Part shown: positions 2,417-15,076 of the stretch, in pieces
Numbering within the stretch: position 1 is the first letter of the stretch
How the letters are laid out: every line of letters begins with the position of its first letter
Assembly (NCBI GenBank): GCA_043748535.1
Contig: JAYTMY010000302.1
Location: forward strand, 1-15,975
Source: Lentisphaeraceae bacterium
GTDB taxonomy: Bacteria > Verrucomicrobiota > Lentisphaeria > Lentisphaerales > Lentisphaeraceae
Length of the DNA stretch: 15,975 nucleotides
Reading direction: 5' to 3'
Made by a program: the position numbers and the translations under genes
Notes under the pieces: generated by a model
Seen by the model: only the letters and a program-made list of their open reading frames with translations
Databases searched by the model: none
Told to the model about the DNA's origin: nothing

Positions 2417-3880
2417 TCAGGGAGCGGCAGGTGCCGGAGCCGGGACAGGCGCACCGGGCAGAGGCGGCAAGTTCAAGGCGCCGGGGACTTTCACCGGAGC
2501 CTTGGCCTTGCACAGCTTTTCCAGCTTCGGCCGGACGCTGTCAAAGCTGTCGCCGGGGATGACGTAGTACCAGTCAGCGAAGCGGCGGTTCTGCGCTTCG
2601 GCCTTCTCCTTGGCTTCCTTCACATCGCGCTCCCAGATCAACTTGGCGTTTTTCGCCGTCTCCCAAGTGGCGAAGGCCGCGTCGTAAGCGGTCTTCTCTT
2701 CCGGCTTGGCGCCTTCCGCGAGTTTCTTCGGCTCTTCTGGCACAGCGGGCGCCGGGAAGAGACTGTCGTTGAAGGCGCAGTTGACGAAGAGATAGCGGTT
2801 GGCCGAGCCTTGCGGCTTGACCTCCTTGCCGTCTTTGTCCTTGGCCAGGGCGGCGGCGCTGCCAGCGTCCGAGGGGTCGCCGTAGAAGACTGCGCCGAAG
2901 CGCAGGGTGTAGGTGACGCCTTTGCTGGTGGCGACGGTGAACTCGCCTTCGTTGGACATCAGGCCCTGCTCGGTGACGAAGAAGCCGCGGCTCTGCAGAT
3001 CGCCCGCTTCTGCTTGACTGAGACCGCCCTTTTCACCCTTGAGGATGGCAGCCAGTTTTGCCGGCTTGGGGCGGACGCTGACCAGGCGGAGCTGGGTCAG
3101 AGCTTGACTCACAGCGTCGACGGCGGTGGAGTCGATCTCCATGCCTTCCGGCGCCGTAATGCCAGCGCCGAATTTCCAGGCTTGATCTTGATGCTCGAGG
3201 CGGTAGCCGCCCTTCGATTTGATCGCGCCGGAGTCAATCGAGTAGTCGCGCAACTCCATCGCCTGCAGGTCGCCTTGGCCGATCTTCAGCAGATCGGTGT
3301 CGACCCAGTCGCCGAAGTTGGTGGAGACCTGGGCATCGGTCTTGACGGCGTAGGTTTTCGACTCGCCGGTGACGCGTACATAACGCCAACCGGGGCGGTT
3401 CTCGAGTTCCTTGCCGAAGATGTAGCTGGCAAGCTTGGCGCCACGGCCGTCTTTGAGGGTGAATTGAATGCCGCGGCCGCTGATGGTCTTGGCATTGAGG
3501 TCGGCGGGATCGACGACACCGAGCTCGACGAAGTCACCGGGGCGGTCGGAACGGATTTCGTTCTTGACCAGGCCGACGACTTGTGAGGCGGCGGTCTTCA
3601 GGCGTTCCTTGGCATCGGCCGGGTAGCCGTAGTGGCTGGGGAGCGACCAGCGGCCGTCTTTGAGCTCGACTTTGAAGTTCTTGAACTGGCCGCTCTTCTC
3701 ATCGAAGCTGACCACTTCCAAGCTGCTCGCGGCAGTCGGATCTTTGAACTCGGCGAAGAAGGGCTGGCCGAGGTCGGAGAAGGCCGCGGTTTCACCCTGG
3801 CTGGGGTTGAGGAAGACGGCGGCGGCGAGGGCACTGCCAGCGAGGGCGGCAAAGCACAGGGTTTTGAGGGATTCGCTCAT
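2417..3880 (-). CDS. Secreted/periplasmic protein, probably a DUF4340-family protein of the kind commonly encoded after gldG-type ABC auxiliary genes.
   Basis: 486 aa. N-terminal signal peptide (MSESLKTLCFAALAGSALAAAVFLNP). Pro/Ala-rich C-terminal tail (…LPPLPGAPVPAPAPAAP). Start ATG lies 2 nt after the stop of the upstream permease/GldG gene (TGATCATG), so the two are translationally linked. The family call rests on conserved operon context (ABC ATPase, ABC-2 permease, GldG, DUF4340) recalled from memory; I have not verified a motif. Confidence 0.55.
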   Translation of the reverse strand: MSESLKTLCFAALAGSALAAAVFLNPSQGETAAFSDLGQPFFAEFKDPTAASSLEVVSFDEKSGQFKNFKVELKDGRWSLPSHYGYPADAKERLKTAASQVVGLVKNEIRSDRPGDFVELGVVDPADLNAKTISGRGIQFTLKDGRGAKLASYIFGKELENRPGWRYVRVTGESKTYAVKTDAQVSTNFGDWVDTDLLKIGQGDLQAMELRDYSIDSGAIKSKGGYRLEHQDQAWKFGAGITAPEGMEIDSTAVDAVSQALTQLRLVSVRPKPAKLAAILKGEKGGLSQAEAGDLQSRGFFVTEQGLMSNEGEFTVATSKGVTYTLRFGAVFYGDPSDAGSAAALAKDKDGKEVKPQGSANRYLFVNCAFNDSLFPAPAVPEEPKKLAEGAKPEEKTAYDAAFATWETAKNAKLIWERDVKEAKEKAEAQNRRFADWYYVIPGDSFDSVRPKLEKLCKAKAPVKVPGALNLPPLPGAPVPAPAPAAP

Positions 3881-3882
3881 GA

Positions 3883-6543
3883 TCAGTTGACTCCGCGAAG
3901 ACGGTTGGCGGGGGCGCCGCTGGATTCGCGGCGACGACGGGAAATGAGAATGAAGAGGCCGAAAATCACCGGCACCAGGGGCGGCAGGACGGCGGCGGCA
4001 AGACGGACTCGGGTGCGACGGTCTTCCATCACGGTCTCGACATCAGCGCGGGATTTTTCGACCCGCGCGGCGGCGGCCATTTCGATGTCGACGCGGCGCA
4101 TCTCGAGGAGGCGCTGCTGGTAGGACTGGGTCTGCTCCAGTTGCATCTGTTTCTCTTCGTCTTTCAGGTCCTTGCGGGTGCTGACTGCGGTGACCGCATC
4201 ATCGAGCTGTTTCTGGGCTTCGGCGATGGCCTTCATGGTCTCGCCTTCGGATTGCAGGCGGATGCCGTCGAGGGCTTTTTCCTGATCCTTGCGGCGCGCT
4301 TCGAACCAGGCGAGATTGCGCTGCTTCGGCCGCTTCTTACGGAGGTCGAGGAAGGATTCATCGCCGGCGAGGGAGTCGATGGCATTGAAGAAGAAGGCGA
4401 AGTTATCGAAGTCCAGCTCGCGGTTTTCGGCGCGCATCTGGAAGATCGGGTCGGCCATGAAGTCGAGGTCGGCGATGACGACGCAATCGACGGCTTTTCC
4501 TTGATCGCCCGAGCCAGTGAGGCGGGCGGCGAAGCAGGGGGCTTCCGAAGTGGCGGCGCGGCGGACGCGCTCGCCCGGTTGCTTCATCCGGGGCTGCCCC
4601 ATCATGGCGCCTTCCATCAGTTCGCTGCAAGGGGTCAAAGTCATGACCCCGCCGCCGGCATTGAGCAGGGGCTCGAACTTCATTTTGGAGCCTTCAGCCA
4701 GCTTCAGGCTGCCAGGGTAGAAGAGCACCATTTCCTGCAAGGAGGAACTGATCTTCGGAGTTTCGGCGAAGCTGTTGAAGTCTTCACCGCGACCGAGGAA
4801 GAGGTATTCCGGCGGCAGTTGTTTGAACTGCGGGTGCGGATTCCAGGTGTTGCCGGCGACGAGATCTTTGTGGACGGTCATGCCGATCTTGCGGAAGAAG
4901 GCTTCGATGTCGCCTTTCGGGGCGGGCGGCTGGCCGCGGGGATCGGGCATGTCGGCCATGAAGGGCGACAGCTTCATTTGCAGAACGCTCAAGGGGTCTT
5001 GCAAAAGCAGGCTGCGGCCGCCGCCGAGGATGTGGCTGGCGAGGCGGTCGAGCTCGGGCTGGCCGAGGGTCGAAGGCTGGACCACGAGGAGGACATCGAG
5101 ATCGGCCGGGTAGGGCGAGGCGGGATCGACTTCCATAACCTGGTATTGCTTGTCGAGTTCGCTCGCCATCTGCCAGGCGGGGGTGCTCTGGAAGGTCTGG
5201 TAGTTCATGCCGCCGCGGATATTGGCTTCGGTGCGAAGCAGACCGAGCTTCTTGCGTTCGGTGACCGAAGCGGTGCGGATCGAGTGGGCCAGCTCATACT
5301 CGAGCGGCAGGGCCGGACCGACGAAGGGAATGACCCGTTGCTGCGCGCCGGAGGAGATGGCGACGCCAAGGAAGACCTGGCTGAGATTGACCGCGCCGCT
5401 GCTGGCATCTTGGATCGAGCGGGCTTCGATGCTGAAGCGGTCCTTGGCCTCTTTCGCCGCCGGAGTGTTCACTTCGGTGTCGACAATGCGAACCTGAACC
5501 TTGCCCTTGCTCATCGCCTGCATTTCGCGCAGGGTGGAGAGGAGCTGTTCACGCACCGGGGCGACCATGCCGGGCACCTTGGGCGAGACAAAGGCCTCGA
5601 CCAGGACGGGGCGTTTCAGATCCCCCAGGAGATCGTGGGTCACCGGCGACAGCGAGTGGATCTTCTCGGCGCTGAGGTCGAGGCGGGCGGGGAATTTGCG
5701 CAAGATGGCGCCGACAGCCGCGAGGGCGAGGAAGACGAAGGCGACGCGCAGGGCGTAGTGCAGGCCGAGGCCGGCCGAGGCGGCATTGCCGTTAGCCCAG
5801 TGGCGACGCGCCAGCAAAATGCGGGCGACGTAGAGCATCAAGGCGGCGCAGCCGAGGAAGCCGAGCAGGGCCTTGAGCGACAAGACGCCCGAGCTGACTT
5901 CCTGGAAGAGCGGCGACAAGCCGGAATCGCGGCCAAAGCCGCTGCGGTCGAGGAAGGCCGCCAGCGAGGGGATGGAGCCGGCGGCAGTGGCGAGATAGCC
6001 GGTGCTCAGCAAGGCGCCGTTGATGGCGACGCCGAGGATGAAGGCGACCGTCGCATTGCTGCTCAGGATCGAGGCGACCAGGCCGGCGGCGATCATCGCG
6101 GCGCCAAGCAGGAAGTAGCCGAGGAAGGAAGCGAAGATCAGGCCCGGATCGGGACTGCCGACGAAGCCGAGAACCGGCAGGATCAAGGCGGAGAAGAGGA
6201 GCGCGACCCCAAGCGTGGCGAGCAAGCCGAGGTATTTGCCGAGGACGACGTCGCCGTCGCGAGCCGGCAGGGTGAGGAGATATTCCTCCGTGCCTTGGCG
6301 TTTCTCTTCCGCCCAGGCGTGCATGGTCAGCACCGGAACGAAGAAGAGCAGCAGCATCGGCATGGCGCGGTTCAGCGGCGCCAGATCGGCGATGTTGTCG
6401 AGGAAGAATCGGCCGTCACCCCAGAACTGCGCGAAGGCGCAGGCCGCAGTGAAAAGCGTGGTGAAGACATAGGCCGCCGGACTGGTGAAGAAGGCGCCCA
6501 CCTGACGGCGGAAGAGGGCGGCGATGACGCGGGTTTGGGACAT
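3883..6543 (-). CDS. Fused ABC-2 family permease (N-terminal, about 6 TM helices) and GldG-like ABC-transporter auxiliary domain, with a C-terminal TM anchor.
   Basis: 886 aa. N-terminus MSQTRVIAALFRRQVGAFFTSPAAYVFTTLF… is typical of ABC-2 permeases, followed by multiple hydrophobic helices. A large extracytoplasmic domain of about 580 aa follows. Near the C-terminus there is a coiled-coil-like stretch, then a TM helix (LAAAVLPPLVPVIFGLFILISRRRR). This layout matches GldF+GldG fused in one polypeptide. It sits directly downstream of an ABC ATPase gene. Confidence 0.8.
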   Translation of the reverse strand: MSQTRVIAALFRRQVGAFFTSPAAYVFTTLFTAACAFAQFWGDGRFFLDNIADLAPLNRAMPMLLLFFVPVLTMHAWAEEKRQGTEEYLLTLPARDGDVVLGKYLGLLATLGVALLFSALILPVLGFVGSPDPGLIFASFLGYFLLGAAMIAAGLVASILSSNATVAFILGVAINGALLSTGYLATAAGSIPSLAAFLDRSGFGRDSGLSPLFQEVSSGVLSLKALLGFLGCAALMLYVARILLARRHWANGNAASAGLGLHYALRVAFVFLALAAVGAILRKFPARLDLSAEKIHSLSPVTHDLLGDLKRPVLVEAFVSPKVPGMVAPVREQLLSTLREMQAMSKGKVQVRIVDTEVNTPAAKEAKDRFSIEARSIQDASSGAVNLSQVFLGVAISSGAQQRVIPFVGPALPLEYELAHSIRTASVTERKKLGLLRTEANIRGGMNYQTFQSTPAWQMASELDKQYQVMEVDPASPYPADLDVLLVVQPSTLGQPELDRLASHILGGGRSLLLQDPLSVLQMKLSPFMADMPDPRGQPPAPKGDIEAFFRKIGMTVHKDLVAGNTWNPHPQFKQLPPEYLFLGRGEDFNSFAETPKISSSLQEMVLFYPGSLKLAEGSKMKFEPLLNAGGGVMTLTPCSELMEGAMMGQPRMKQPGERVRRAATSEAPCFAARLTGSGDQGKAVDCVVIADLDFMADPIFQMRAENRELDFDNFAFFFNAIDSLAGDESFLDLRKKRPKQRNLAWFEARRKDQEKALDGIRLQSEGETMKAIAEAQKQLDDAVTAVSTRKDLKDEEKQMQLEQTQSYQQRLLEMRRVDIEMAAAARVEKSRADVETVMEDRRTRVRLAAAVLPPLVPVIFGLFILISRRRRESSGAPANRLRGVN

Positions 6544-6592
6544 TTTTGAGCTCAGTAAAGAGGTTAAGTGGTAAAGAAGTAAAGGTGAAGCC

Positions 6593-7312
6593 TTAGGCCT
6601 TGGCGGCGGTCAGCTGATGGAAGACCTCGTCGAGGTTCGGGCCTTTGGCCTTGAGCTCTTGCACGGAGCCGTCGAAGACGAGGCGGCCGGCGTTGACCAG
6701 CAGGACGCGGGAGGCCATGGCTTCGACTTCTTGGAGGATGTGGGTGGAGAGCAGGATGGTCTTGGTCTTGGCCAACCGAGCGATGAGCTCGCGGACGCTG
6801 CGGATCTGATTTGGATCGAGGCCGGAGGTCGGCTCGTCGAGGATCAGCACTTCCGGATCGTGGAGGAGCGCCTGGGCCATGCCGACGCGCTGGCGGAAGC
6901 CCTTCGACAACTTGCCGCAGGGCTTGTGCAGGACTTCTTCGAGGTGGCAAGAGTCGACGACGCGGTCAATCGCTTCCTGAACCTTGTCGAGCCCGCGGAT
7001 ATCGGCGGCGAAACGCAGCGATTCCAGCGGCGTCATGTCGAGGTAGAGCGGGCCGTTTTCGGGCAGGTAGCCGAGGCGGCTGGCGCCGGCGATCCGGTCG
7101 TTCTGCATGTCGTGCCCGGCGATGCGGCTGGCGCCTGCCGAGGGGGCGAGGAAGCCGGTGAGCAGCTTCATCGTCGTCGACTTGCCAGCGCCGTTGGGGC
7201 CGAGGAAGGCCGCCACTTGGCCACGCGGTATGCTGAAGCTGATCTGCTCCACCGCCGTGAACTGGCCGTAGTATTTGCTGAGCCCTTCGGCTCGGATCAT
7301 TTCTTCACTCAT
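6593..7312 (-). CDS. ABC transporter ATP-binding protein (GldA/CcmA-like ABC-2 subfamily ATPase).
   Basis: 239 aa. Walker A GPNGAGKST, Q-loop, ABC signature LSKGFRQRVGMAQAL, Walker B LILDEPTSGLD, H-loop LLSTHIL. SD-like AGGAGC about 9 nt upstream of the ATG at 7312. Confidence 0.92.
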   Translation of the reverse strand: MSEEMIRAEGLSKYYGQFTAVEQISFSIPRGQVAAFLGPNGAGKSTTMKLLTGFLAPSAGASRIAGHDMQNDRIAGASRLGYLPENGPLYLDMTPLESLRFAADIRGLDKVQEAIDRVVDSCHLEEVLHKPCGKLSKGFRQRVGMAQALLHDPEVLILDEPTSGLDPNQIRSVRELIARLAKTKTILLSTHILQEVEAMASRVLLVNAGRLVFDGSVQELKAKGPNLDEVFHQLTAAKA

Positions 7313-7581
7313 GTTCTTCTATGCTCCTGTTGGGAAAAGTACGGACGCATCTTATCCGGGCTCGCCAGTCCGGCAAACCCCCGTCCAAGTGTTTAAGGAC
7401 GATTGACAAAGAAACTTGTTGCATGGGTCAAGATGAATTTTCGGTCAGAAGTCGCCCTCGATTCTCAAGTTTTTCCAAACTCGTAAGGATCGAACAGCAA
7501 AAAAGATTTGGCATTCGGGGACAAGAGGGAGTATGATGTGGAAGCTGACTTGTGAAATTGAAACTGAACTGGAGAATGAAC
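7313..7581. promoter_or_regulatory. Divergent intergenic region, AT-richer than its flanks. It presumably carries the promoters of the ABC/GldG operon (-) and the flotillin gene (+). No convincing sigma70 -10 element was found.
   Basis: 269 bp non-coding between divergent starts. TTGACA hexamer at 7403-7408 sits inside a loosely palindromic TTGAC…N19…GTCAA element (7403-7431). Strong SD-like GAGGGAG at 7525-7531. Confidence 0.3.
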
Positions 7582-9840
7582 ATGATGCTGCACACATCGC
7601 TCATATTTGGGAATCCCCTTTTGGCGCAATCTGGCTCCGGCTGGGGCTATGATATGTTTAAGCTCTTCGGAATCGTTGTTGTAGTCGGCTTGGGCAGTCT
7701 TTTTGTCCTGTGGTTGGTTTACGCGGCATTATTCGGTTATCGCAAGGTCCAGCAAGGCTCGGCCATCATCCGCACAGGCCGAGGCGGGTCAATGGTAAGC
7801 TTCGACGGCATTTCAGTGACTCCCTTGATGCACCGCATGGAAGTGATGGACATCTCGGTCAAACGGGTAGAGATTTCCCGCCACGGCGCCAGCGGACTCA
7901 TCTGCAAAGACAACATCCGGGCCGACATCAAGGTCGCTTTCTTCGTTCGAGTCAACAACACCCAAGAAGATGTCCTCAAGGTCGCCGGCATGATCGGCGT
8001 CGAGCGCGCTTCCGACCATCAGGCCCTGATGCACCTCTTTGAAGCCAAATTCTCGGAAGCGCTGAAAACCGCCGGCAAGGCCTTCGATTTCGAAGATCTC
8101 TACACCAAGCGTCTTGAGTTCAAGGAACAGATTAAGCAATTGATCGGCACCGACCTCAACGGCTACCACCTCGAAGACGCCGCCATCGACGAACTCGAAC
8201 AGACTCCGAAAAACCTGCACAACCCCGACAACGTCCTCGACGTCCAGGGTCTCGACAAGATCACCCGCATCACCCAAGAGCGGAAGATCACCATCAACGA
8301 GAAAGAGCGCGAACAGGAAAAGGCGATCACCCGCCAGAACGTCGACGCCCGCGAAAAAATCCTCGACATGGAGCGCGAATTGGCCAACGCCGAAGCGACC
8401 CAGCGCAAAGAGATCGACAGCCTGCGCGCCCGCACCGAAGCCGAGACCCACAAGGTCCAGCAGGAAGAACGCCTGCGCGCCGAACAGGCCCGCATCAACA
8501 CCGATGAACAACTCGCCATCGCCGAAGAAAACAAGAAGCGCCAGATCATCGTCGCCGAAAAATCGAAAGAGAAGACCGAAGCGGTCGAAACCGAACGGGT
8601 CGAGAAGGACCGCGCCCTCGAAGCCACCGAGCGCGAGCGCGTCGTCACCCTCGCCCAGATCGAGCGCGACAAACAGGTCGAGATCGAGCGCAAGACCATC
8701 CAGGAAGTCATCCGCGAACGCGTCGCCGTCGAGCGCACCGTCGCCGAGCAGGAAGAGAAGATCAAAGACACCCGCGTCTTCGCCGAGCTCGACCGCCGCA
8801 AGGCCGACGCCACCAAGACCGCCGAAGCCGCTGGTGACGCCATCTTGATCACCGAGTCCCGCAAAGCCGAAGCCAGCAAGAAATCCGCCGAGCTCAATGC
8901 CGAGCGCGATTACACCGTCGGTGTCCGTCAGGCCGAAGGCGACAAGAAGCGCGCCGAGCTGTACTCCGAAAAAGCTCTCGTTGAAGCGGAAACAGCGAAA
9001 AAAGCCAGCGCTCTGCACGCCGAAGGCATGAAGTCGAAAGCCGAAGGCGACGCCGCCATGCAGGCCGCCCCCGGCATTGCCGACGCCCGCGCCAAATCGG
9101 CCCTCGCCGAAGCCTTCGAGAAACAAGGCAAGGCCGAAGCCAGCGTCCAGCTCGCCATGGCCGAGTCCGCCCTCAAACAAGGCACCGCCGAAGCCGACGT
9201 CTACCGCCTCAAGGCCCAGGCCGAAGCCCAAGGCCGCCTCGCCAACGCCGAAGCCACCCAGAAACAGGGTGCCGCCGAAGCCGACGTCAGCCGCCTCAAG
9301 TACGAAGCCGAAACCAAGTTCATCCACGACAAAGCCGAAGCGATGAAAAAGCTCGACGGCGTCGGACGCGACCACGAAGAATTCAAGCTTCGCCTCGCCA
9401 AGGAACAAGCGGTCGAACTGGCCCAGATCACGGTCCAGGCCGACATCGCCGCCGCTCAATCCGAAGTCCTCAAGGCCGGCCTCGCCTCCGCCAAGATCGA
9501 CATCGTCGGTGGCGACACGATCTTCTTCGACAAGCTCATGTCCTCGGTCATCAAGGCCCGCGAAATCGACTCCCTCGTCGGCCGCTCCAAGACCCTCACC
9601 CAGGTCAAGGACACCTTCTTCGACGGCCAGGGCAATGGCGACTTCAAAGCCAACCTGCGCGGCTTCGTCGACAAGTTCGGGGTCAGCGCCGAGGAGCTCA
9701 AAAGCCTCAGCACCACCCGCCTCCTTAACAAGCTCGCCGGCCAGGCCCAAGGTGGCGACAAGGATCTGATCAACCAAGCCATTGCCGCCGTCCAGTCCCT
9801 CGGGCTCGGCGACAGCAAGGCGGGAGACCTGCTGAAGTAA
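7582..9840 (+). CDS. Flotillin-family protein (SPFH/band-7 domain; YqiK/FloT-like) with an N-terminal TM helix and a long Glu/Ala/Lys-rich coiled-coil C-terminal region.
   Basis: About 750 aa. TM helix FGIVVVVGLGSLFVLWLVYAALFGY. SPFH core QGSAIIRTGRGGSMVSFDGISV…CKDNIRADIKVAFFVRV…, which I recall as collinear with E. coli YqiK. Degenerate repeats (KQGTAEADVYRLKAQAEA / KQGAAEADVSRLKYEAE). Stop TAA at 9838-9840. Start uncertain: GTG 7552 (as in the ORF track), ATG 7576, ATG 7582 (GGAG 7 nt upstream, chosen here) or ATG 7654 (immediately after the stop of a uORF). Confidence 0.85.
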   Translation: MMLHTSLIFGNPLLAQSGSGWGYDMFKLFGIVVVVGLGSLFVLWLVYAALFGYRKVQQGSAIIRTGRGGSMVSFDGISVTPLMHRMEVMDISVKRVEISRHGASGLICKDNIRADIKVAFFVRVNNTQEDVLKVAGMIGVERASDHQALMHLFEAKFSEALKTAGKAFDFEDLYTKRLEFKEQIKQLIGTDLNGYHLEDAAIDELEQTPKNLHNPDNVLDVQGLDKITRITQERKITINEKEREQEKAITRQNVDAREKILDMERELANAEATQRKEIDSLRARTEAETHKVQQEERLRAEQARINTDEQLAIAEENKKRQIIVAEKSKEKTEAVETERVEKDRALEATERERVVTLAQIERDKQVEIERKTIQEVIRERVAVERTVAEQEEKIKDTRVFAELDRRKADATKTAEAAGDAILITESRKAEASKKSAELNAERDYTVGVRQAEGDKKRAELYSEKALVEAETAKKASALHAEGMKSKAEGDAAMQAAPGIADARAKSALAEAFEKQGKAEASVQLAMAESALKQGTAEADVYRLKAQAEAQGRLANAEATQKQGAAEADVSRLKYEAETKFIHDKAEAMKKLDGVGRDHEEFKLRLAKEQAVELAQITVQADIAAAQSEVLKAGLASAKIDIVGGDTIFFDKLMSSVIKAREIDSLVGRSKTLTQVKDTFFDGQGNGDFKANLRGFVDKFGVSAEELKSLSTTRLLNKLAGQAQGGDKDLINQAIAAVQSLGLGDSKAGDLLK

Positions 9841-9915: not shown

Positions 9916-9988
9916 CTACCGGGGGGTCAGGACGGTTCAGGCCACCGGGGGTTCGCGTCCACCGGGGGTTCAAAACCCCCGGCTACCA
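9916..9988. repeat. Repeat-rich element resembling a tRNA 3' half (T-arm plus acceptor 3' strand), with degenerate tandem copies. Not an intact tRNA.
   Basis: Three copies of (c)accggggg(g)t(t)c at 9918, 9945 and 9961. Perfect hairpin ccggggg-TTCAAAA-cccccgg (9962-9982), T-loop-like, followed by ggctacc-a (acceptor-like). No complementary 5' acceptor strand, D-arm or anticodon arm could be found on either strand. Confidence 0.4.
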
Positions 9989-10031
9989 TCCTCCGATCGC
10001 TCCGCGATGAACGCAAAAACGAGAAGCCTTC

Positions 10032-10697
10032 ATGAATCACAAGCCCCTCCCCGCTTATACACGACTGACACCTGAGCTTCGCCGTCGACTGCTCTTGCGT
10101 CCGGCGCAAGAATCCCTCGGCCCTCTGGCTTGGTGGTTCAGCGGGCTTTTGAGCTTTGGCTGGATCTGGGTCGCGGGTTCACTCAGCACTTATTTCATCG
10201 AAGTGGGCTTCCTCCTTCATCGTCCGGCGGTTTTGCCCTGCATGCCGAATAGTGATCTAGCCGGGTGGATCGGCTTTGTCGGAACGGGGCTGCCGCTGCT
10301 GATGTTCGGCCTGGATCGACTGCAGGTTTTAGCACCAGCTCTCCAGCGTCCCTGGCCGCATTGGCGACGCTTGCAAGTGGCGTTTGTCAGAAGCTTGCCT
10401 TTGCTGAGCTTCTTGTGGATGATGGTTTTTTTGCTGCAGCTTCGATCCCATCATCGGCTTCCCGGCGATGGAAACTGGCTCCTGATTGCACTGAACACCG
10501 GCGCAGGCGTTTACACCCTGCATCTCTGGCGACATCTGATCTGCAAGCCTATGTCTCTGCAGGGAGTTCTGGTTCAAATGAAATCCAGAATGACTAAAAA
10601 AGTCCTGTTGATCATGCTGTGTATATTTATCGTCTACTGCGTGCTCATTGCAGCGTTTATCCTCTATGCCCTGAACAAGGCCAAAGTCCCATGCTGA
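10032..10697 (+). CDS. Hypothetical multi-pass membrane protein (about 5 TM, Trp-rich) with atypical codon usage.
   Basis: 221 aa. Hydrophobic helices LAWWFSGLLSFGWIWVAGSLSTYFI, IGFVGTGLPLLMFGL, LPLLSFLWMMVFLLQL, WLLIALNTGAGVYTLHLW, VLLIMLCIFIVYCVLIAAFILYAL. GC3 is visibly lower than in flanking genes, and the last about 130 nt are AT-rich (about 45% GC). Stop TGA overlaps the next start in ATGCTGA. I recognise no family. Confidence 0.55.
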   Translation: MNHKPLPAYTRLTPELRRRLLLRPAQESLGPLAWWFSGLLSFGWIWVAGSLSTYFIEVGFLLHRPAVLPCMPNSDLAGWIGFVGTGLPLLMFGLDRLQVLAPALQRPWPHWRRLQVAFVRSLPLLSFLWMMVFLLQLRSHHRLPGDGNWLLIALNTGAGVYTLHLWRHLICKPMSLQGVLVQMKSRMTKKVLLIMLCIFIVYCVLIAAFILYALNKAKVPC

Positions 10698-11854
10698 AAA
10701 CCCTCGCCATCGCCAACTACCGCTCGCTCCGCGATGTCCGTCTCGCGCTCGGTCCGCTGAACCTGATCACCGGGGCCAACGGCTGCGGCAAGTCGAGCGT
10801 CTATCGCTCCTTCCAGTTGCTCGCCAGCGCCGGACGCGGCGGCATCATTCCGGGATTGGCCCGTGAAGGCGGCATCGAGTCGACCCTCTGGGCCGGCTCT
10901 GAACAAGGAGCGCTGCGGCAGTTGCGGCAAGGAAAACCGGTGACCGCCACCGTGCGGAGTGAACCGATCAACCTGCGCCTGGGTTTCGCCACGGAAGACT
11001 TCGGTTATCAGATCGATCTCGGTCATCCGCCATCATCACCCCCTTTGAATTCGCCATTTGATTTGGATCCGGCGATCAAATGCGAAGCCATCTGGCATGG
11101 CCCGACCTTGCGACCTGGCACCCTTCTGGCGGAGCGCCGCGGCCCGCTTCTGCGTAGCCGCGACAAGGCCGGAACCTGGTGCATTGTTCATCAGGATCTG
11201 CCGGCATATGAGAGTCTTTTTGAGGCCCTCAGCGACCCGCGTTCTTCGCCCGAGGTCTTCCTGCTGCGCGAACGCCTGCGCAACTGGCGCTTCTATGATC
11301 ATTTCCGCTCCGATGCCGAGGCTCCCGCTAGGCGAGCCCAGATCGGCACGCGCAGCTTTGTCCTCGATCACGACGGCGCCAATCTCGCGGCGACGCTGCA
11401 GACGATCCGGGAACTCGGCCAGCCCGGTCTGCTGGAGCGAGCGGTGGCCGACGCCTTTCCGGGGGCGGAATTGGAGACCAGTAGTTCCCATATCCAGATG
11501 CGGCAGCTCGGCCTCTTGCGCCCCCTCGCCGCTTCCGAGCTGTCCGATGGCACCTTGCGCTATCTCCTGCTCTGCGCCGCTCTGCTCAGCATCCGCGCCC
11601 CTGAATTGCTGGTCCTCAACGAACCGGAGAACAGCCTGCACCCCGATCTCCTGCCCGCCCTCGGCCGCCTCATCCGTCAGGCCGCCGAGCGCACTCAGGT
11701 GCTGGTGGTGTCGCACTCCTTGCCTTTGATCGAAGCTCTGAACCGCGATCCCCGCTGCCAGCATCATCCCCTCGAAAAAAACGGCGGCGAAACCCAAATC
11801 ACCGGGCAGGATCCACTGATCAATCGCCCCTCCTGGCAATGGATGCAGCGATGA
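10691..11854 (+). CDS. ABC/SMC/OLD-like P-loop ATPase (AAA_15/AAA_21-type) with no recognisable nuclease domain. Walker B reads NE rather than DE.
   Basis: 387 aa from ATG 10691 (the ORF track starts at an upstream TTG/GTG, 10619). N-terminal LAIANYRSLRDVRLALGPLNLITGANGCGKSS (Walker A). Signature-like SDGTLRYLLLCAALL. Walker B/D-loop LLVLNEPENSLHPDL. H-loop VLVVSHS. The start overlaps the stop of the upstream membrane gene, so the two form an operon. Confidence 0.8.
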   Translation: MLKTLAIANYRSLRDVRLALGPLNLITGANGCGKSSVYRSFQLLASAGRGGIIPGLAREGGIESTLWAGSEQGALRQLRQGKPVTATVRSEPINLRLGFATEDFGYQIDLGHPPSSPPLNSPFDLDPAIKCEAIWHGPTLRPGTLLAERRGPLLRSRDKAGTWCIVHQDLPAYESLFEALSDPRSSPEVFLLRERLRNWRFYDHFRSDAEAPARRAQIGTRSFVLDHDGANLAATLQTIRELGQPGLLERAVADAFPGAELETSSSHIQMRQLGLLRPLAASELSDGTLRYLLLCAALLSIRAPELLVLNEPENSLHPDLLPALGRLIRQAAERTQVLVVSHSLPLIEALNRDPRCQHHPLEKNGGETQITGQDPLINRPSWQWMQR

Positions 11855-11879: not shown

Positions 11880-11886
11880 AGGTCTT

Positions 11887-12510
11887 TTATTTGCCCCGAA
11901 CCACGCCAAATCGCGCCGCCTCTTCGGGGCTCAAAGCCTTCTCGTCGCTGAGCACGATTTTCGACAGGGATCCGGCGGGATCTTCGAGGGTCACTTGATG
12001 GATCGAGACGCCTCCTTCGACGAGGATGCGGCGAAGGCCTTTGGCCATTTCGGCGTCCTTCGGCAAGAGCTCCAGGGTCCAGGCGTCGGCCTTGCCGCCG
12101 GCTTTGACGGTGAATTGTTTTTCGAGCTCTTTCAGGTCGGCGGCGAAGAGGGCGGCGAAGGTGCCGGCAAAGGCCGCCAGCATCGGCTGGTCGCTGGCTT
12201 TGATCTCGCTGCGGCGATTGCGGGAATCGCGCTGCACCAGGGACTTTGCGTTGATCGCAACCGACGAAGCAAAGGGTTTTTCCTGTTGCCACAAAAGGCC
12301 ATCCTGACGCGAGATCAGAAGGCGTCCAGAGGAACGCAGGGGACGGCTCAAAGCGGGCAGATTTTTTTCTTGAGAGAAGCTGGCGGACCAATCGGCCTTG
12401 CCGGCGAAGCGCTGACGCAAGCTCGCCACCAGCTCAGGCGCGGGAGCTTCTTGAGGAGCCGGGGTCGGCTCGGCGGCAAGCATGGCTAGAGCGGCGAATA
12501 GCGCGATCAT
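11887..12510 (-). CDS. LolA-like periplasmic protein (outer-membrane lipoprotein carrier fold). Last gene of the lyase operon.
   Basis: 207 aa. Signal peptide MIALFAALAMLAAEP. Strong SD AGGGAG 7 nt upstream. Loose LolA-like pattern (…LISRQDGLLWQQEKPF…, …WTLELLPKDAEMAKGLRRILVEGGVSIHQVTLEDPAGSLSKIVL). Convergent with the ATPase gene, with only a 32-nt gap. Confidence 0.55.
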   Translation of the reverse strand: MIALFAALAMLAAEPTPAPQEAPAPELVASLRQRFAGKADWSASFSQEKNLPALSRPLRSSGRLLISRQDGLLWQQEKPFASSVAINAKSLVQRDSRNRRSEIKASDQPMLAAFAGTFAALFAADLKELEKQFTVKAGGKADAWTLELLPKDAEMAKGLRRILVEGGVSIHQVTLEDPAGSLSKIVLSDEKALSPEEAARFGVVRGK

Positions 12511-12579
12511 CGGCGATCTCCCTGATTTTACTCAGCTTCAGGAACAACTCGATCGGGACGATCGAGCCACATTGAGCAC

Positions 12580-13008
12580 TTACAAGCCTTGCTTGATGTG
12601 CGGGAGGAGGCGGTCACGGAAGGATTGCGGCGAGACGAAGAGCATTTCGCCGCTGGCGGCGTCGACGGCGACTTGTACGGTGGTGCCCTTGCACAGGCGC
12701 AGGCCCTTGGGGTCGCGCAGCTCATAACGCACTTTGACGCGGTTTTCCCACTCGATCAGCTCGGCGCTGCAGACCAGCTTCATGCCGTAGCGGGCAGGGT
12801 AGGAGAAGCGCAGTTGACAGTCGACGACGGGCCAGATGTGGCCGCAATCCTTCATGTCCTGGAAGTCGTAATTGACGCCGCGGAAGAGGACGTTGCGGGC
12901 GGCTTCGAAGTAGCGCAGGTAGTTGCCGTGCCAGACGACGCCCATGGGGTCGCATTCGTGGAAGGCAACTTCGATGTCGGCGGTGGCGCGGAGGAAGACG
13001 GGAGTCAT
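12580..13008 (-). CDS. Hotdog-fold acyl-CoA thioesterase (4HBT/YbgC family).
   Basis: 142 aa. Active-site region HECDPMGVVWHGNYLRYFEAAR, matching the DxxGhVxHxxY motif of 4HBT thioesterases. Confidence 0.8.
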   Translation of the reverse strand: MTPVFLRATADIEVAFHECDPMGVVWHGNYLRYFEAARNVLFRGVNYDFQDMKDCGHIWPVVDCQLRFSYPARYGMKLVCSAELIEWENRVKVRYELRDPKGLRLCKGTTVQVAVDAASGEMLFVSPQSFRDRLLPHIKQGL

Positions 13009-13046
13009 GGATCAGTTTTTCCGTGTGGTATTGCGACGCGGCGGTT

Positions 13047-14576
13047 TCATTGGGGTTCCAGCGGCCAGTCGCCGGCGAGGACGGCGTGGCTGAGGGAGCG
13101 GAGTTCATTTTCCAGTTCGCGATCCTCGCCGAGGAAGGCGGCGTGGCGGCGGACGGCGGCAAAGGCCTGTTGGCCGCGTTCCGACAAGGCGCCGAGGGCG
13201 AGCTGGCCGCGGCGTTGGCGGATCTCGACACCTTGCGCCGAAGCCAGGAGGCAGGCGGCGGCGTTCTGCGAACAGAGCTCGGCGATGCGCAGGGCGTCGC
13301 GAGCGGCGATGGTACCCATGCTCACCTTGTCCTGATTGTGGCACTCGGTGGAGCGTGACAGGATGCTGGCGGGCAGGGTCAGGCGGGCGGCTTCGGCGCA
13401 CCAGGCGGTGGTGGCGATGCTGACCGCTTTGAGTCCGTGGTTGATCGGGGCGCGTTCGCCTTCGGCGCCAGAGAGGTTGGCGGGCAGGCCGTGCGAGGCA
13501 TGGCGGTCGGTGAGCAGGGCCATCTGGCGGTCGAGCAGGTCGGCGATGCCGGCGAGCTGCGACTTCAGGCTGTCGGCGACATAGGCGACATGGCCGCCGT
13601 AGAAGTGGCCGCCATGGAGAAGCTGGCCGTCATCGGGGTCGATGAGAGGGTTGTCGTTGGCGGAATTGAGCTCGATGACGAGCATCGATTCGAGGTGCGG
13701 CAGGGCGTCGAGAAGGACCCCGACGACATGCGGGGCGCAACGCAGCGAATAGCGGTCTTGCAGACGGTTTTCGCCGCACACCAGGGCGGTGCCGAGGTGG
13801 GAGCGGATGGCGCCGGCGGCGCGGGCCAGACCCGGGTGCGGCTTGGCGCTCATCAGGCGTTCGGAGTGGTGGCCGGGATTGCCGCGGATGGCTTCGATAG
13901 CGAGGGCGGTGGCGGCACAGGTGGCGCCGCAGATCGCTTCGGCGCGACGCAGGGCGAGGGCGGCGATCGCGGTCATGACGCTGGTGCCGTTCATCAAGGC
14001 CAGGCCTTCTTTCGGCTGCAGGACGAGCGGGCGCAAGCCGGCGCGGGCCAAGGCGTCCGATGCGGGTTCGAAGCCGGAGCCCTCGGCGGTCCAGACTTGG
14101 CGGCGAGCACAAAGTACGGCGGCGACATAGGAAAGGGGAGTGAGGTCGCCACTGGCCCCGACCGAGCCTTCGCGGGGGATGCGCGGCAGGATGTCGCGAT
14201 TGATCAATTCGGCGAGGAGATGCACTAGTTCCGGCCTGACGGCGGACCAGCCGCGGCTGACGGAGGCGAGGCGGGCGGCGAGGATGGCGCGGGTCTCTTC
14301 GCGGGAGAAGGGTTCGCCGAGGCCGCAGCCGTGGAAGCTGACCAGTTGGCCGGGGAGTTCGGCGACGAGATAGGCGGGGATGCCGACGCTGCACGAATCG
14401 CCGTAGCCGGTAGTGACGCCATAGATGACGCCGGTTTCATCCCAACGGCGACGCAGGGCATCGGCGCCGAGTTCGAGACGGGCCTTGAGATCGGGCGACG
14501 AGGTGTCGATCCGCAGTTTTCCGGCGGCGGCTTGAACCAGATGGTCCAGGGTCCAATCCTCGTGCCCGAGACGCAT
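13047..14576 (-). CDS. Aromatic amino-acid ammonia-lyase, MIO-dependent (HAL/PAL/TAL family). Substrate not resolved.
   Basis: 509 aa. MIO-forming Ala-Ser-Gly in GSVGASGDLTPLSYVA. YGVTTGYG motif. QDRYSLRCAPHVVG. NGTSVMTA. Not next to any hut genes. Start ATG is 2 nt after the stop of the upstream small ORF. Confidence 0.9.
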   Translation of the reverse strand: MRLGHEDWTLDHLVQAAAGKLRIDTSSPDLKARLELGADALRRRWDETGVIYGVTTGYGDSCSVGIPAYLVAELPGQLVSFHGCGLGEPFSREETRAILAARLASVSRGWSAVRPELVHLLAELINRDILPRIPREGSVGASGDLTPLSYVAAVLCARRQVWTAEGSGFEPASDALARAGLRPLVLQPKEGLALMNGTSVMTAIAALALRRAEAICGATCAATALAIEAIRGNPGHHSERLMSAKPHPGLARAAGAIRSHLGTALVCGENRLQDRYSLRCAPHVVGVLLDALPHLESMLVIELNSANDNPLIDPDDGQLLHGGHFYGGHVAYVADSLKSQLAGIADLLDRQMALLTDRHASHGLPANLSGAEGERAPINHGLKAVSIATTAWCAEAARLTLPASILSRSTECHNQDKVSMGTIAARDALRIAELCSQNAAACLLASAQGVEIRQRRGQLALGALSERGQQAFAAVRRHAAFLGEDRELENELRSLSHAVLAGDWPLEPQ

Positions 14577-14578
14577 GA

Positions 14579-14767
14579 TCAGGACTTCCCTTGCGCCTTT
14601 TTGGCGGGTGCTGCTTTGGCGGCGGGCGCGGCAGTCTTGGGCGCGGCTTGGCCTTTGTAGGCGAGGATGGCGGCAGCGACGATCTCGTCGAAATCGAGAT
14701 CGGTTTCCGCTTGCAGGTGCAGAAGGTGTTGGCTGCTGGTCTCGTCCAGCTCGATATCAATGCGCAT
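14579..14767 (-). CDS. Small ribbon-helix-helix (CopG/ParD-like) DNA-binding protein with a Lys/Ala/Pro-rich C-terminal tail. Likely regulator of the lyase operon.
   Basis: 62 aa. MRIDIELDETSSQHLLHLQAETDLDFDEIVAAAILAY follows the beta-strand/helix/helix pattern of ParD-type RHH proteins (compare RLTIDMTDQQHQSLKALAA). Tail KGQAAPKTAAPAAKAAPAKKAQGKS. SD GGAGAAG 11 nt upstream. Confidence 0.5.
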   Translation of the reverse strand: MRIDIELDETSSQHLLHLQAETDLDFDEIVAAAILAYKGQAAPKTAAPAAKAAPAKKAQGKS

Positions 14768-15076
14768 GGATATAGCTTCTCCGTTGAGTGGGGGGAATAT
14801 GCTGCCGCGACCTTTGACGGCAAGTGCGGCGGCGGGAATTGTCGGAGAGGTGAAGAGCTTTAGGTGTTAGGATTGAGCTGGCCTGCCGTCCGTGATTTGC
14901 TGGTGCGAAGCTTCATATCGTTCTTGCGCTTTGCGCAGAACGAGCGGTCCCTCACGAAAAATTCACACACTCGGACATTGCGTAACGGGGCTTTCCCGAG
15001 ATATTAGCGCCCCGTTTCGCTCCCTAGGCGGAGCACGGAATTCCCCGCGTACACGAGACCTTGCCTGGAGATGCCG
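14768..15076. promoter_or_regulatory. Divergent promoter/operator region between the RHH-lyase operon (-) and speA (+).
   Basis: 309 bp non-coding. Imperfect palindrome TCGTTCTTGCGC-ttt-GCGCAGAACGA at about 14918-14943, a candidate RHH operator. GGAG 6 nt upstream of the speA ATG at 15077. Confidence 0.3.

What the first reader, a model, noticed from the sequence alone, without database searches (positions are those of the whole stretch)
11887..14767. Orphan RHH / ammonia-lyase / hotdog-thioesterase / LolA-like operon resembling the starter-and-export part of aryl-polyene or flexirubin clusters
Four tightly spaced minus-strand genes. The RHH stop and lyase start are 2 nt apart, and a 38-nt gap separates lyase from thioesterase. 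They encode a MIO-dependent aromatic ammonia-lyase, a 4HBT thioesterase and a signal-peptide LolA-like protein under a small RHH regulator. I know the ammonia-lyase + thioesterase + LolA-like combination as a signature of aryl-polyene/flexirubin/dialkylresorcinol-type gene clusters. In those, a TAL makes 4-coumarate as the starter and LolA-like proteins handle the lipid product. Here there is no KS/CLF, ACP, CoA ligase or MMPL exporter. The operon is bounded by speA on one side and the foreign cassette on the other. So it is either a trans-acting fragment of a split cluster or an uncharacterised small pathway, for example production and export of a cinnamate or urocanate-type metabolite.
Basis: partly seen in the sequence, partly recalled or inferred. 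Interest (0 to 1): 0.6.

Follow-up and report, generated by a model that had tools for sequence, protein, structure and literature searches.

The report
Detached aryl-polyene lyase–thioesterase–LolA operon
This is a real four-gene operon whose three recognisable genes are a piece cut out of the widespread bacterial aryl-polyene pigment-lipid gene cluster. A Verrucomicrobiota lineage keeps it intact and under selection with no other pathway gene within the about 24.8 kb examined, which is a modestly interesting variant of a known system.

Summary
Four same-strand minus-strand genes lie at 14767-11887, separated by gaps of 2, 38 and 69 nt. They encode a 62-aa ORF, a 509-aa MIO aromatic ammonia-lyase, a 142-aa 4HBT thioesterase and a 207-aa LolA-like protein.

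The lyase is not HutH. It is 34% identical to a bona fide HutH and carries Gln, not Glu, at the HAL/TAL discriminating motif. It belongs to a lyase clade that almost always sits inside complete aryl-polyene (APE) clusters, in the fixed order lyase, ApeK thioesterase, ApeL LolA-like protein, ApeM. The thioesterase is 42% identical to E. coli ApeK and the LolA-like protein 32% identical to ApeL.

In this Verrucomicrobiota lineage only these three genes remain, preceded by a conserved promoter-like 5' region and a lineage-specific small ORF. The same 2.96-kb unit occurs in three related genomes in three unrelated contexts. All four genes are under purifying selection (dN/dS 0.03-0.29).

I found no KS, CLF, ACP, ligase or MMPL gene, or remnant of one, in the about 24.8 kb examined. 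I could not test whether the rest of the pathway lies elsewhere in the genome. The RHH assignment is only weakly suggested.

Verdict: a new variant of a known kind, of moderate interest.

The parts
14768..14843 (-). Conserved 5' region of the unit. It contains a sigma-70-like TTGCCG (14818-14823), a 16-nt spacer, CATATT (14796-14801) and a GGAGAA ribosome-binding site (14777-14782).
   Evidence: DNA homology among the three genomic contexts starts sharply here. About 62 nt are nearly invariant, whereas the coding sequence is 90-93% identical. The promoter reading is by eye (8 of 12 matches). The consensus scan, which needs 9 of 12, reported nothing.
14579..14767 (-). Lineage-specific small ORF of 62 aa: an acidic N-terminal domain of about 40 residues and a basic Ala/Pro/Lys tail. 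It is a possible RHH-like regulator.
   Evidence: dN/dS is 0.08-0.14 across three genomes, and the first 38 residues are identical in two of them. There is no Pfam, NCBIfam or PADLOC hit. Only one hit was found among 1.84 billion representatives, from the same lineage. The AlphaFold2 model gives coil 1-8, helices 9-21 and 26-39, with pLDDT 76-85 over the N-terminal 40 residues. The best Foldseek hits are the RHH proteins Reg576 and MatP, but with E = 2.2 and 4.3.
13047..14576 (-). MIO-dependent aromatic amino-acid ammonia-lyase of the aryl-polyene-associated clade, predicted to be tyrosine-type (TAL).
   Evidence: PF00221, E = 7.7e-142. It scores below the HutH, FlxA, PAL and TAM equivalog cutoffs. 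The ASG triad is present in GSVGASGDLTPLS. Tyr52 aligns with the residue altered in PDB 3kdz, and His82 with the His of the SgTAM 'SH' motif. Motif 2 is NQD (Gln), against NQED (Glu) in HutH. Identity is 50-58% to APE-embedded lyases and 34% to HutH. It forms a deep branch inside the APE-type clade.
12580..13008 (-). ApeK-type hotdog (4HBT/YbgC-family) thioesterase.
   Evidence: PF13279 and PF03061. It is 42% identical to E. coli CFT073 ApeK, E = 6e-40, and the HxxDxxGVxWHGNY motif is conserved. It lies downstream of the lyase in 71 of 80 related loci. dN/dS is 0.03-0.29.
11887..12510 (-). ApeL-type LolA-like periplasmic lipid-carrier protein with a short hydrophobic N-terminus.
   Evidence: PF19574 LolA_3, 3.9e-17. 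It scores below the housekeeping LolA equivalog cutoff, 49 against 112 bits. It is 32% identical to E. coli ApeL, E = 5e-25. It occupies the colinear position in 66 of 80 loci. A GGGAG Shine-Dalgarno sequence lies upstream of the ATG. Homology among the three contexts ends exactly at its stop codon.
11785..11804 (-). Candidate intrinsic terminator about 85 nt downstream of the LolA-like stop codon, outside the conserved unit.
   Evidence: The pattern scan found a 6-bp stem followed by a T7 run. The number of such sites in the region equals the shuffled expectation, so this is weak evidence.

Best explanation
The locus is a self-contained transcription unit: a promoter-like region, a small ORF, a lyase, a thioesterase and a LolA-like gene. 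Its three recognisable genes derive from the contiguous lyase-apeK-apeL segment of an aryl-polyene (APE) lipid gene cluster.

Shown:
- The lyase belongs to the APE-associated MIO-lyase clade and has TAL/PAL-type, not HAL-type, active-site motifs.
- The thioesterase is an ApeK homologue and the LolA-like protein an ApeL homologue.
- The unit is conserved, intact and under purifying selection in three related Verrucomicrobiota genomes, and the sequence held around it in each carries no other APE gene.

Inferred mechanism:
- The lyase deaminates tyrosine to 4-coumarate, the aromatic starter.
- The ApeK-type thioesterase edits or releases aryl or acyl thioesters.
- The secreted ApeL-type protein shields an aromatic lipid during transit across the periplasm.
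- This chemistry needs a ligase, ACP, ketosynthases and an inner-membrane exporter. The most likely arrangement is therefore that the operon acts in trans with unlinked polyene or lipid genes, in a genome whose operons have been heavily reshuffled.
- The small ORF may regulate the unit.
For: Identity of the genes:
- Pfam assignments.
- ApeK 42% identical and ApeL 32% identical to the E. coli CFT073 proteins.
- Lyase motifs and identities and the NJ placement.

Origin in an APE cluster:
- The trio is colinear in 66-71 of the 80 nearest loci, and 12-19 of 19 APE genes surround it there.
- Explicit examples are Jeongeupia, Lentisphaeraceae and the Ralstonia megaplasmid.

Functionality:
- dN/dS is 0.03-0.29 for all four genes in all three pairwise comparisons, similar to speA at 0.10.
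- The 5' region is nearly invariant.

Split clusters and gene-scale rearrangement are plausible:
- Methylobacter clusters end directly after the lyase.
- The Lentisphaeraceae cluster ends after the MMPL-like gene.
- In this lineage, homology around the housekeeping gene speA is also confined to the gene plus 122 nt upstream.

Ascribed roles of ApeK, ApeL and ApeM come from PMC8253772 and bioRxiv 10.1101/2020.12.19.423268. TAL as the flexirubin starter enzyme comes from PMC3992019.
Against: - No partner genes were found. None lie in the roughly 20 kb held around the lyase in any of the three contexts, and there are no remnants at E < 1.
- A search seeded with the Lentisphaeraceae ApeH/ApeI protein gave no hit attributable to this 62% GC lineage. 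That search would probably miss a divergent orthologue, so it is weak evidence.
- ApeK's biochemical role is unresolved even in E. coli and Xenorhabdus (PMC8253772).
- The lyase's substrate is inferred from two motifs only, and the flexirubin paper warns that sequence alone does not predict specificity (PMC3992019).
- Without ApeM and ApeN it is unclear how ApeL would receive cargo.
Confidence: 0.5

Rival explanations
1. Autonomous small pathway. The operon works without a polyene synthase. For example, the lyase makes 4-coumarate (or a beta-amino acid, if it is an aminomutase). The thioesterase acts on a thioester supplied by general metabolism. The LolA-like protein carries or presents a phenolic or lipidic product in the periplasm.
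For: - The unit carries its own conserved promoter-like region and a private small ORF.
- It moves and persists as exactly these four genes in three contexts.
- It is under purifying selection.
- No APE partner was found anywhere that could be searched.
- The best PDB match of the lyase is a tyrosine aminomutase.
Against: - There is no activating ligase, so the thioesterase has no dedicated substrate.
- There is no inner-membrane exporter, so the periplasmic carrier has no dedicated supplier.
- Every relative of each gene that could be placed in context works inside a full APE cluster.
- The whole genomes were not inspected.
Confidence: 0.25
2. Evolutionary relic. This is the surviving fragment of an APE cluster whose other genes were deleted. 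It is still intact but no longer serves the pathway.
For: Reduced fragments exist elsewhere. Photobacterium chitinilyticum keeps only CLF-ACP-lyase among unrelated genes, and a Burkholderiaceae MAG contig has the lyase alone.
Against: - All four ORFs are intact in three genomes separated by dS of about 0.04-0.8 (mostly 0.2-0.4), with dN/dS of 0.03-0.29.
- Active-site motifs are fully retained.
- The upstream region is more conserved than the coding sequence.
- A neutral relic would show frameshifts and dN/dS near 1.
Confidence: 0.1
3. Split histidine-utilisation regulon. The lyase is HutH, and the neighbouring genes are unrelated to it.
For: The best NCBIfam hits by score are histidine ammonia-lyase models, and several sources name homologues 'histidine ammonia-lyase' automatically.
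Against: - The score of 369 is below the hutH equivalog cutoff of 539.
- It is 34% identical to a HutH from a hutIHGU operon, against 50-58% to APE-type lyases.
- Motif 2 is Gln, not the HAL-specific Glu (PMC3992019).
- It lies outside HutH in the NJ tree.
- No hutU or hutI is nearby.
Confidence: 0.02
4. Mobile or defence-island cargo. The 2.96-kb unit is a mobile cassette that inserts into variable regions, and its function is connected with the neighbouring toxin-antitoxin and defence genes.
For: - There are three different insertion contexts with sharp homology boundaries.
- Neighbours include a HEC-01A-like ATPase, Unstab_antitox/ParE, PIN/RHH, MazEF and a 1796-aa DUF3686 ATPase.
Against: - There is no recombinase, terminal repeat or target duplication at the boundaries.
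- The housekeeping gene speA shows the same gene-limited homology between these genomes, so gene-scale shuffling looks general in the lineage.
- Divergence of the unit (dS 0.17-0.35) is similar to that of speA (0.40), as expected for vertical descent.
- GC3 matches the neighbours.
Confidence: 0.05

Closest known systems
apeK-apeL segment of the aryl-polyene (APE) cluster of E. coli CFT073 (c1193-c1192) and Xenorhabdus doucetiae
   Same: The gene order is thioesterase then LolA-like. Identity is 42% to ApeK and 32% to ApeL. The thioesterase shares the same hotdog motif.
   Different: The E. coli cluster has no ammonia-lyase and uses 4-hydroxybenzoate as starter (PMC8253772). There, apeK and apeL are embedded between apeJ and apeM among 18 genes. 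Here they stand alone with a lyase and a novel small ORF.
Lyase-containing APE-type clusters of Proteobacteria and Lentisphaeraceae (for example Jeongeupia sp. HS-3, the Ralstonia solanacearum megaplasmid, Stenotrophomonas, Vibrio/Photobacterium)
   Same: These have the same three genes in the same order, 50-59% lyase identity and identical (F/Y)HGCG and STECHNQDKVSMG motifs.
   Different: There, CLF, acyltransferase, two ACPs, ApeH/I ligase-dehydratase, GT2 and LpxL-type acyltransferase lie upstream. MMPL, DUF3261, KS, DH, KR and KS lie downstream. None of these is present here.
Flexirubin clusters of Chitinophaga and Flavobacterium (FlxA TAL, thioesterases, LolA-like export genes)
   Same: An MIO lyase with a HAL-like motif 1 and a TAL/PAL-type Gln at motif 2 makes the 4-coumarate starter. 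A LolA-like protein is implicated in pigment export (PMC3992019).
   Different: The FlxA equivalog model scores 270 bits against a cutoff of 700, and LolA2_flexi scores 56 against 125. The genes are therefore not orthologues of the flexirubin proteins, and no DAR genes are present.
Naturally split or reduced APE loci (Methylobacter spp.; Photobacterium chitinilyticum)
   Same: They show that the cluster can be broken next to the lyase, or reduced to a few genes.
   Different: Different subsets survive: CLF to lyase in Methylobacter, and CLF-ACP-lyase in P. chitinilyticum. The lyase-ApeK-ApeL subset with its own promoter region and small ORF was seen only in this Verrucomicrobiota lineage.

Membership tests
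Aryl-polyene (APE) biosynthetic gene cluster | Presence of the core genes KS (apeO/R), CLF (apeC), ACP (apeE/F), DH (apeI/P), KR (apeQ) and the transporter apeM (definition used in bioRxiv 10.1101/2020.12.19.423268) | tested here: not met
   tblastn with 19 Jeongeupia, 4 Lentisphaeraceae and 4 L086 APE proteins finds only the lyase, thioesterase and LolA-like genes in the window, L081, L082 and L089. Nothing beyond chance appears at E < 1. The Pfam context tables agree.
Aryl-polyene (APE) biosynthetic gene cluster | Accessory genes apeK (thioesterase) and apeL (LolA-like), adjacent and in this order | tested here: met
   42% and 32% identity to E. coli CFT073 ApeK and ApeL. The genes are colinear in 66-71 of 80 related loci.
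Aryl-polyene (APE) biosynthetic gene cluster | Remaining core genes present elsewhere in the same genome (split cluster) | not testable with these tools
   The whole MAGs cannot be read. The ApeH/I-seeded search gave no hit attributable to this lineage, but it would miss divergent orthologues.
Histidine ammonia-lyase HutH | Score above the TIGR01225 equivalog cutoff | tested here: not met
   369.3 bits against a cutoff of 539.15.
Histidine ammonia-lyase HutH | Glu in the NQED motif (motif 2; Glu in HAL, Gln in TAL/PAL per PMC3992019) | tested here: not met
   The window has HNQDKVSMG. Rhizobium HutH has ANQEDHVSM.
Histidine ammonia-lyase HutH | Linkage with hutU, hutI or hutG | tested here: not met
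   No hut genes occur in the sequence held for any of the three contexts. Compare the hutIHGU operon in L093.
MIO-dependent aromatic amino-acid lyase/aminomutase (PF00221) | Family profile match, the Ala-Ser-Gly MIO-forming triad and the catalytic Tyr | tested here: met
   PF00221, E = 7.7e-142. GSVGASGDLTPLS is present. Tyr52 aligns with the position that reads F in PDB 3kdz; that this is the SgTAM catalytic Tyr63 is from memory.
Tyrosine ammonia-lyase (TAL) | His at the selectivity-switch position and Gln at motif 2 | tested here: met
   His82 aligns with the His of the SgTAM 'SH' motif. The C-terminal motif region best matches RsTAL 2o6y, with NQD. That the aligned residue corresponds to the published selectivity-switch His rests on my memory of the SgTAM and RsTAL structural papers. 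The preceding residue is Phe or Tyr, a clade-specific feature.
Tyrosine ammonia-lyase (TAL) | Measured preference for L-tyrosine; lyase rather than 2,3-aminomutase | not testable with these tools
   This needs an enzyme assay. The FlxA, BagA and Tyr_2_3_mutase models all score below their cutoffs.
Housekeeping LolA lipoprotein chaperone | Score above the TIGR00547 equivalog cutoff | tested here: not met
   49.3 bits against a cutoff of 112. The protein matches PF19574 LolA_3 better than PF03548.
Ribbon-helix-helix (RHH) transcription factor (small ORF) | Profile match to an RHH family | tested here: not met
   No Pfam hit at E < 10, and no NCBIfam or PADLOC hit. There is no homologue outside the lineage.
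Ribbon-helix-helix (RHH) transcription factor (small ORF) | Strand-helix-helix fold | tested here: inconclusive
   The AlphaFold2 monomer has an extended stretch at 1-8 and two helices, with pLDDT 76-85 over the N-terminal 40 residues. The top Foldseek hits are RHH proteins, but with E = 2.2 and 4.3. The residues of the putative strand that would face outward are acidic, which is unusual for DNA contact (read from the sequence).

The most novel reading that the evidence does not exclude
The lyase-ApeK-ApeL trio, with its private small ORF, is an autonomous functional unit that needs no polyene synthase. It would be a minimal system that makes a tyrosine-derived aromatic acid, or a conjugate of it, and delivers it to the cell envelope. 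If so, these three genes would form a separable sub-module inside all lyase-containing APE clusters, and the unresolved role of ApeK would be tied to the lyase product rather than to the polyene chain.
Probability: 0.2. Interest if true: 0.6.

Novelty: new variant of a known kind. Interest (0 to 1): 0.38.

Why it matters
APE clusters are described as the most widespread bacterial biosynthetic gene-cluster family, yet the roles of ApeK and ApeL are only postulated, and I found no characterisation of the cluster-borne lyase in the literature I searched. A lineage that keeps exactly these three genes, under selection and as a separate transcription unit, is a natural dissection of the pathway. 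It suggests they may form a functional sub-module and offers a simple system for testing what they do. It is also a practical warning for genome mining. Cluster-based tools would miss this locus, or call the lyase 'histidine ammonia-lyase', as several sources already do.

Tried and rejected
- **Looking for the missing APE genes in the same organism.**
  - I searched the protein collection with the Lentisphaeraceae ApeH/ApeI protein and inspected the two most divergent PVC-clade hits. Their contigs are 39% GC, like Lentisphaeraceae, not 62% like this lineage, so they are not from it.
  - The search lists only the top 120 hits and would miss a roughly 35%-identical orthologue, so the result is inconclusive.
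- **P0002 and P0003.** These scored as closer lyase relatives, but P0002 is a 700-aa protein with an internal duplication, about 58-61% identical and located inside an APE-like context. P0003 sits on a 2.7-kb contig. Neither is an intermediate form.
- **Mobility.** I found no repeats or recombinase at the unit's ends. The speA control showed that gene-limited homology is not special to this unit.
- **Origin of the small ORF.** It is not a remnant of the upstream LpxL-type acyltransferase. No similarity to any APE locus was found.
- **Other searches that gave nothing.**
  - Rfam found no RNA family in the window.
  - The sigma-70 scan found no promoter at its threshold.
  - A look-up of the histidine-kinase gene, meant to extend the contig view, found nothing on record.
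  - Literature searches found no paper on the lyase of proteobacterial APE clusters in the held library.
  - Cimermancic et al. 2014 was not found under the PMC id I recalled.


Full report
**1. The observation**

The window has four consecutive minus-strand ORFs:
- 14767-14579, 62 aa.
- 14576-13047, 509 aa.
- 13008-12580, 142 aa.
- 12510-11887, 207 aa.

The sequence shows the small-ORF stop (14579-14581) 2 nt from the lyase ATG (14574-14576). It also shows gaps of 38 nt and 69 nt between the next genes.

Pfam assigns the three larger products as follows:
- Lyase_aromatic, E = 7.7e-142.
- 4HBT_2 and 4HBT.
- LolA_3 and LolA.

The small ORF matches nothing in Pfam, NCBIfam or PADLOC, even at E < 10.

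speA starts at about 15078 on the opposite strand. A convergent AAA_21 ATPase gene ends at 11854. Only the RHH label and the signal-peptide label lack direct support.

**2. Where the window comes from**

The lyase is encoded on a 41.9-kb metagenomic scaffold (ENA ERZ28573510, locus L081).

Proteins more than 90% identical occur in MAGs labelled Verrucomicrobiota (GCA_039798785.1, locus tags RL095_2757-2759; GCA_945877655.1) and in several metagenomes. The nearest named relatives of both the lyase and speA outside this lineage are Lentisphaeraceae/Lentisphaerales MAGs, at 55% and 64-66% identity.

**3. The lyase is not HutH; it belongs to the aryl-polyene-associated clade**
- It scores 369 bits on the hutH equivalog model, whose cutoff is 539. 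It is also below the cutoffs of the FlxA, BagA, PAL and aminomutase models.
- I aligned it with a genuine HutH from a Rhizobium hutI-hutH-hutG-hutU operon. The two are 34% identical, against 50-58% to the lyases of APE-type clusters.
- The MIO triad (GSVGASGDLTPLS) is present. Tyr52 aligns with the position that reads F in PDB 3kdz. That this position is the SgTAM catalytic Tyr63 is from memory.
- At motif 2, HutH reads ANQEDHVSM. The window enzyme and every APE-type lyase read HNQDKVSMG. Glu at this position marks HAL and Gln marks TAL/PAL (PMC3992019).
- The C-terminal motif region matches Rhodobacter TAL (2o6y) best. The whole protein matches Streptomyces tyrosine aminomutase best.
- At motif 1 the clade has (F/Y)-H, with the His aligned to the His of the SgTAM 'SH' motif.
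- An NJ tree places the window lineage as a deep branch inside the clade of 86 APE-type lyases, with HutH and SgTAM outside.

A tyrosine-type substrate is therefore the best inference. Specificity cannot be read from sequence alone, as PMC3992019 makes explicit.

**4. The three genes are a contiguous piece of the APE cluster**
- In the 80 closest lyase loci of a species-representative genome collection, a homologue of the window thioesterase follows the lyase in 71. A homologue of the LolA-like protein follows that in 66.
- I used the 19 proteins of the Jeongeupia cluster as probes. Nearly all of those loci carry 12-19 of them around the lyase.
- The order in Jeongeupia is CLF, acyltransferase, two ACPs, a hypothetical protein, the ApeH/ApeI ligase-dehydratase, GT2, an LpxL-type acyltransferase, then lyase, thioesterase and LolA-like. 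These are followed by MMPL, halogenase, DUF3261, KS, ApeP dehydratase, KR and KS.
- The annotated Ralstonia solanacearum megaplasmid shows the same arrangement.
- The experimentally studied E. coli CFT073 cluster has apeK (thioesterase) and apeL (LolA-like) in the same order. The window proteins are 42% (E = 6e-40) and 32% (E = 5e-25) identical to them.
- Published work proposes ApeK as a releasing or proofreading thioesterase. It proposes ApeL, with ApeM and ApeN, as the machinery that moves the APE lipid to the outer membrane (PMC8253772; bioRxiv 10.1101/2020.12.19.423268).

**5. In this lineage the piece stands alone**

The window, L081, L082/L083 and L089-L091 contain only the lyase, thioesterase and LolA-like genes. 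Relaxed searches at E < 1 with 27 APE proteins find no remnants in the flanks.

The unit occurs in three unrelated contexts:
- speA | unit | AAA_21 ATPase.
- Pel9A-like/IclR/sulfatase | unit | Unstab_antitox, DUF3686 ATPase, PIN/RHH.
- L27-Obg-PP2C | unit | DUF2062-MlaE-ABC ATPase.

DNA homology between the contexts is 90-93%. It begins sharply about 76 nt upstream of the small-ORF ATG and ends exactly at the LolA-like stop codon.

The upstream 62 nt are almost invariant. They contain TTGCCG-16 nt-CATATT and a GGAGAA ribosome-binding site (read by eye). The unit is thus a complete transcription unit of 2.96 kb (window 11886-14843).

**6. It is maintained by selection and is probably not specifically mobile**
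- Nei-Gojobori dN/dS for all four genes in all three pairwise comparisons is 0.03-0.29, at dS mostly 0.2-0.4.
- The small ORF gives 0.08-0.14. Its first 38 residues are identical in two genomes despite synonymous changes, so it is a real gene.
- As a control I took speA. Its orthologue in GCA_039798785.1 (94% identical, dS 0.40, dN/dS 0.10) lies on another contig, far from the unit, with different neighbours on both sides. DNA homology there is likewise limited to speA plus 122 nt upstream.
- Gene-scale reshuffling therefore seems general in these genomes. The three contexts are not evidence for a mobile cassette.
- No recombinase or terminal repeats flank the unit. Its GC3 resembles that of its neighbours.

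**7. The small ORF**
- It has no homologue outside the lineage among 1.84 billion representatives and no similarity to any APE locus.
- A single-sequence AlphaFold2 model gives an extended N-terminus, two helices (9-21 and 26-39; pLDDT 76-85 over the N-terminal 40 residues) and a disordered Ala/Pro/Lys tail.
- The two best Foldseek matches are RHH proteins (Reg576 and MatP), but with E = 2.2 and 4.3.
- The N-terminal domain is strongly acidic, which is unusual for a DNA-contacting ribbon.

'RHH regulator' remains a guess.

**8. How it most likely works**

Shown: the gene identities, the origin in an APE cluster, the intactness and the purifying selection.

Inferred:
- The lyase makes 4-coumarate from tyrosine.
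- The ApeK-type enzyme hydrolyses an aryl or acyl thioester.
- The ApeL-type protein chaperones an aromatic lipid in the periplasm.

These steps need a ligase, an ACP, ketosynthases and an exporter. I therefore favour action in trans with unlinked genes, at about 0.5.

Two observations make split arrangements credible. Methylobacter clusters stop right after the lyase, and the Lentisphaeraceae locus stops after the MMPL-like gene.

I could not inspect the whole genomes. A search seeded with the Lentisphaeraceae ApeH/I protein found nothing attributable to this lineage. That is weak negative evidence.

The rival readings are:
- An autonomous small pathway, about 0.25.
- A relic, about 0.1. Selection argues against it, although reduced remnants such as CLF-ACP-lyase in Photobacterium chitinilyticum do exist.
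- A mobile or defence-linked cassette, about 0.05.
- A hut gene, about 0.02.

**9. Comparison and verdict**

By the published core-gene definition the locus is not an APE cluster, because the core genes are absent. Its genes are nevertheless members of the APE accessory families (the lyase clade, ApeK and ApeL).

It is best described as a new variant of a known kind: a detached, separately promoted lyase-ApeK-ApeL operon with a novel small ORF. So far it has been seen only in one Verrucomicrobiota lineage.

Interest is moderate at 0.38. The case is a useful natural dissection of a very widespread but poorly understood pathway, but it is not categorically new.

Noticed in passing
window 10032-11854 (+): Two overlapping genes lie next to the unit. 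One is a 221-aa ORF with no family match. The other is an AAA_21 ATPase that matches the PADLOC candidate defence protein HEC-01A (E = 4e-41), and more weakly AriA and MADS3. This is probably a two-gene defence system.
   Followed up: partly
window 7552-9840 (+): A 762-aa SPFH/Band 7 protein gene has an unusually strong AT skew (0.43-0.48 over 8001-9500). It also contains an internal repeat of about 130 nt (9124-9254 against 9210-9341, 74% identical).
   Followed up: no
window 9959-10018; L081 14559-14806; L082 6103-6336: A 94-nt tandem repeat has 2.6 copies in L081, but the window appears to hold only a single ~60-nt copy of this stretch (9959-10018). The window and the ENA scaffold therefore differ here, by assembly or strain. 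Related copies in both orientations occur in the L082 genome, which suggests a lineage-wide intergenic repeat element.
   Followed up: partly
L082 about 9540-9640: A (GTGAGGGA)n microsatellite lies immediately upstream of the conserved 5' boundary of the unit, in the L082 context only.
   Followed up: no
L081 7561-9622 against L092 9878-11940: Between genomes about 90% identical in nucleotide sequence, homology around the housekeeping gene speA is limited to the gene plus 122 nt upstream. All neighbours differ, and a resolvase gene sits next to speA in L092. In the two loci examined this suggests unusually fine-grained, gene-scale genome shuffling in this Verrucomicrobiota lineage.
   Followed up: partly
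L014 8592-11518 (Photobacterium chitinilyticum): A reduced APE remnant consists only of CLF (Ketoacyl-synt_2), one ACP and the lyase. It is flanked by unrelated genes: a glycosyl-transferase-family-3 N-terminal-domain protein upstream of CLF, with a GFO/IDH/MocA oxidoreductase and a LysR regulator beyond it, and an MCP gene downstream.
   Followed up: partly
L028, L068, L076, L079 (Methylobacter and Methylomicrobium): In these loci the APE-type cluster ends directly after the lyase. The thioesterase, LolA-like, MMPL and second KS/DH/KR block are not adjacent. This is a natural split of the cluster at the same junction.
   Followed up: no
L086 299-2401 (protein P0002): A 700-aa lyase has an internal duplication of about 190 residues, so the region equivalent to residues 270-450 is present twice. 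It lies in an APE-like context. It is either an assembly artefact or a real duplication.
   Followed up: no
L089 12850-14940: In one of the three contexts the LolA-like gene is followed on the same strand by DUF2062, MlaE and an ABC ATPase (Mla-type lipid transport). This may be coincidental, but it is worth checking for co-transcription.
   Followed up: no
window 2417-7312 (-): A putative operon encodes an ABC ATPase, a fused ABC-2 permease/GldG-like (ABC_transp_aux) protein and a DUF4340 protein. A hybrid histidine kinase with PAS, HisKA, HATPase, two receiver domains and Hpt lies at 161-2347 (+).
   Followed up: no
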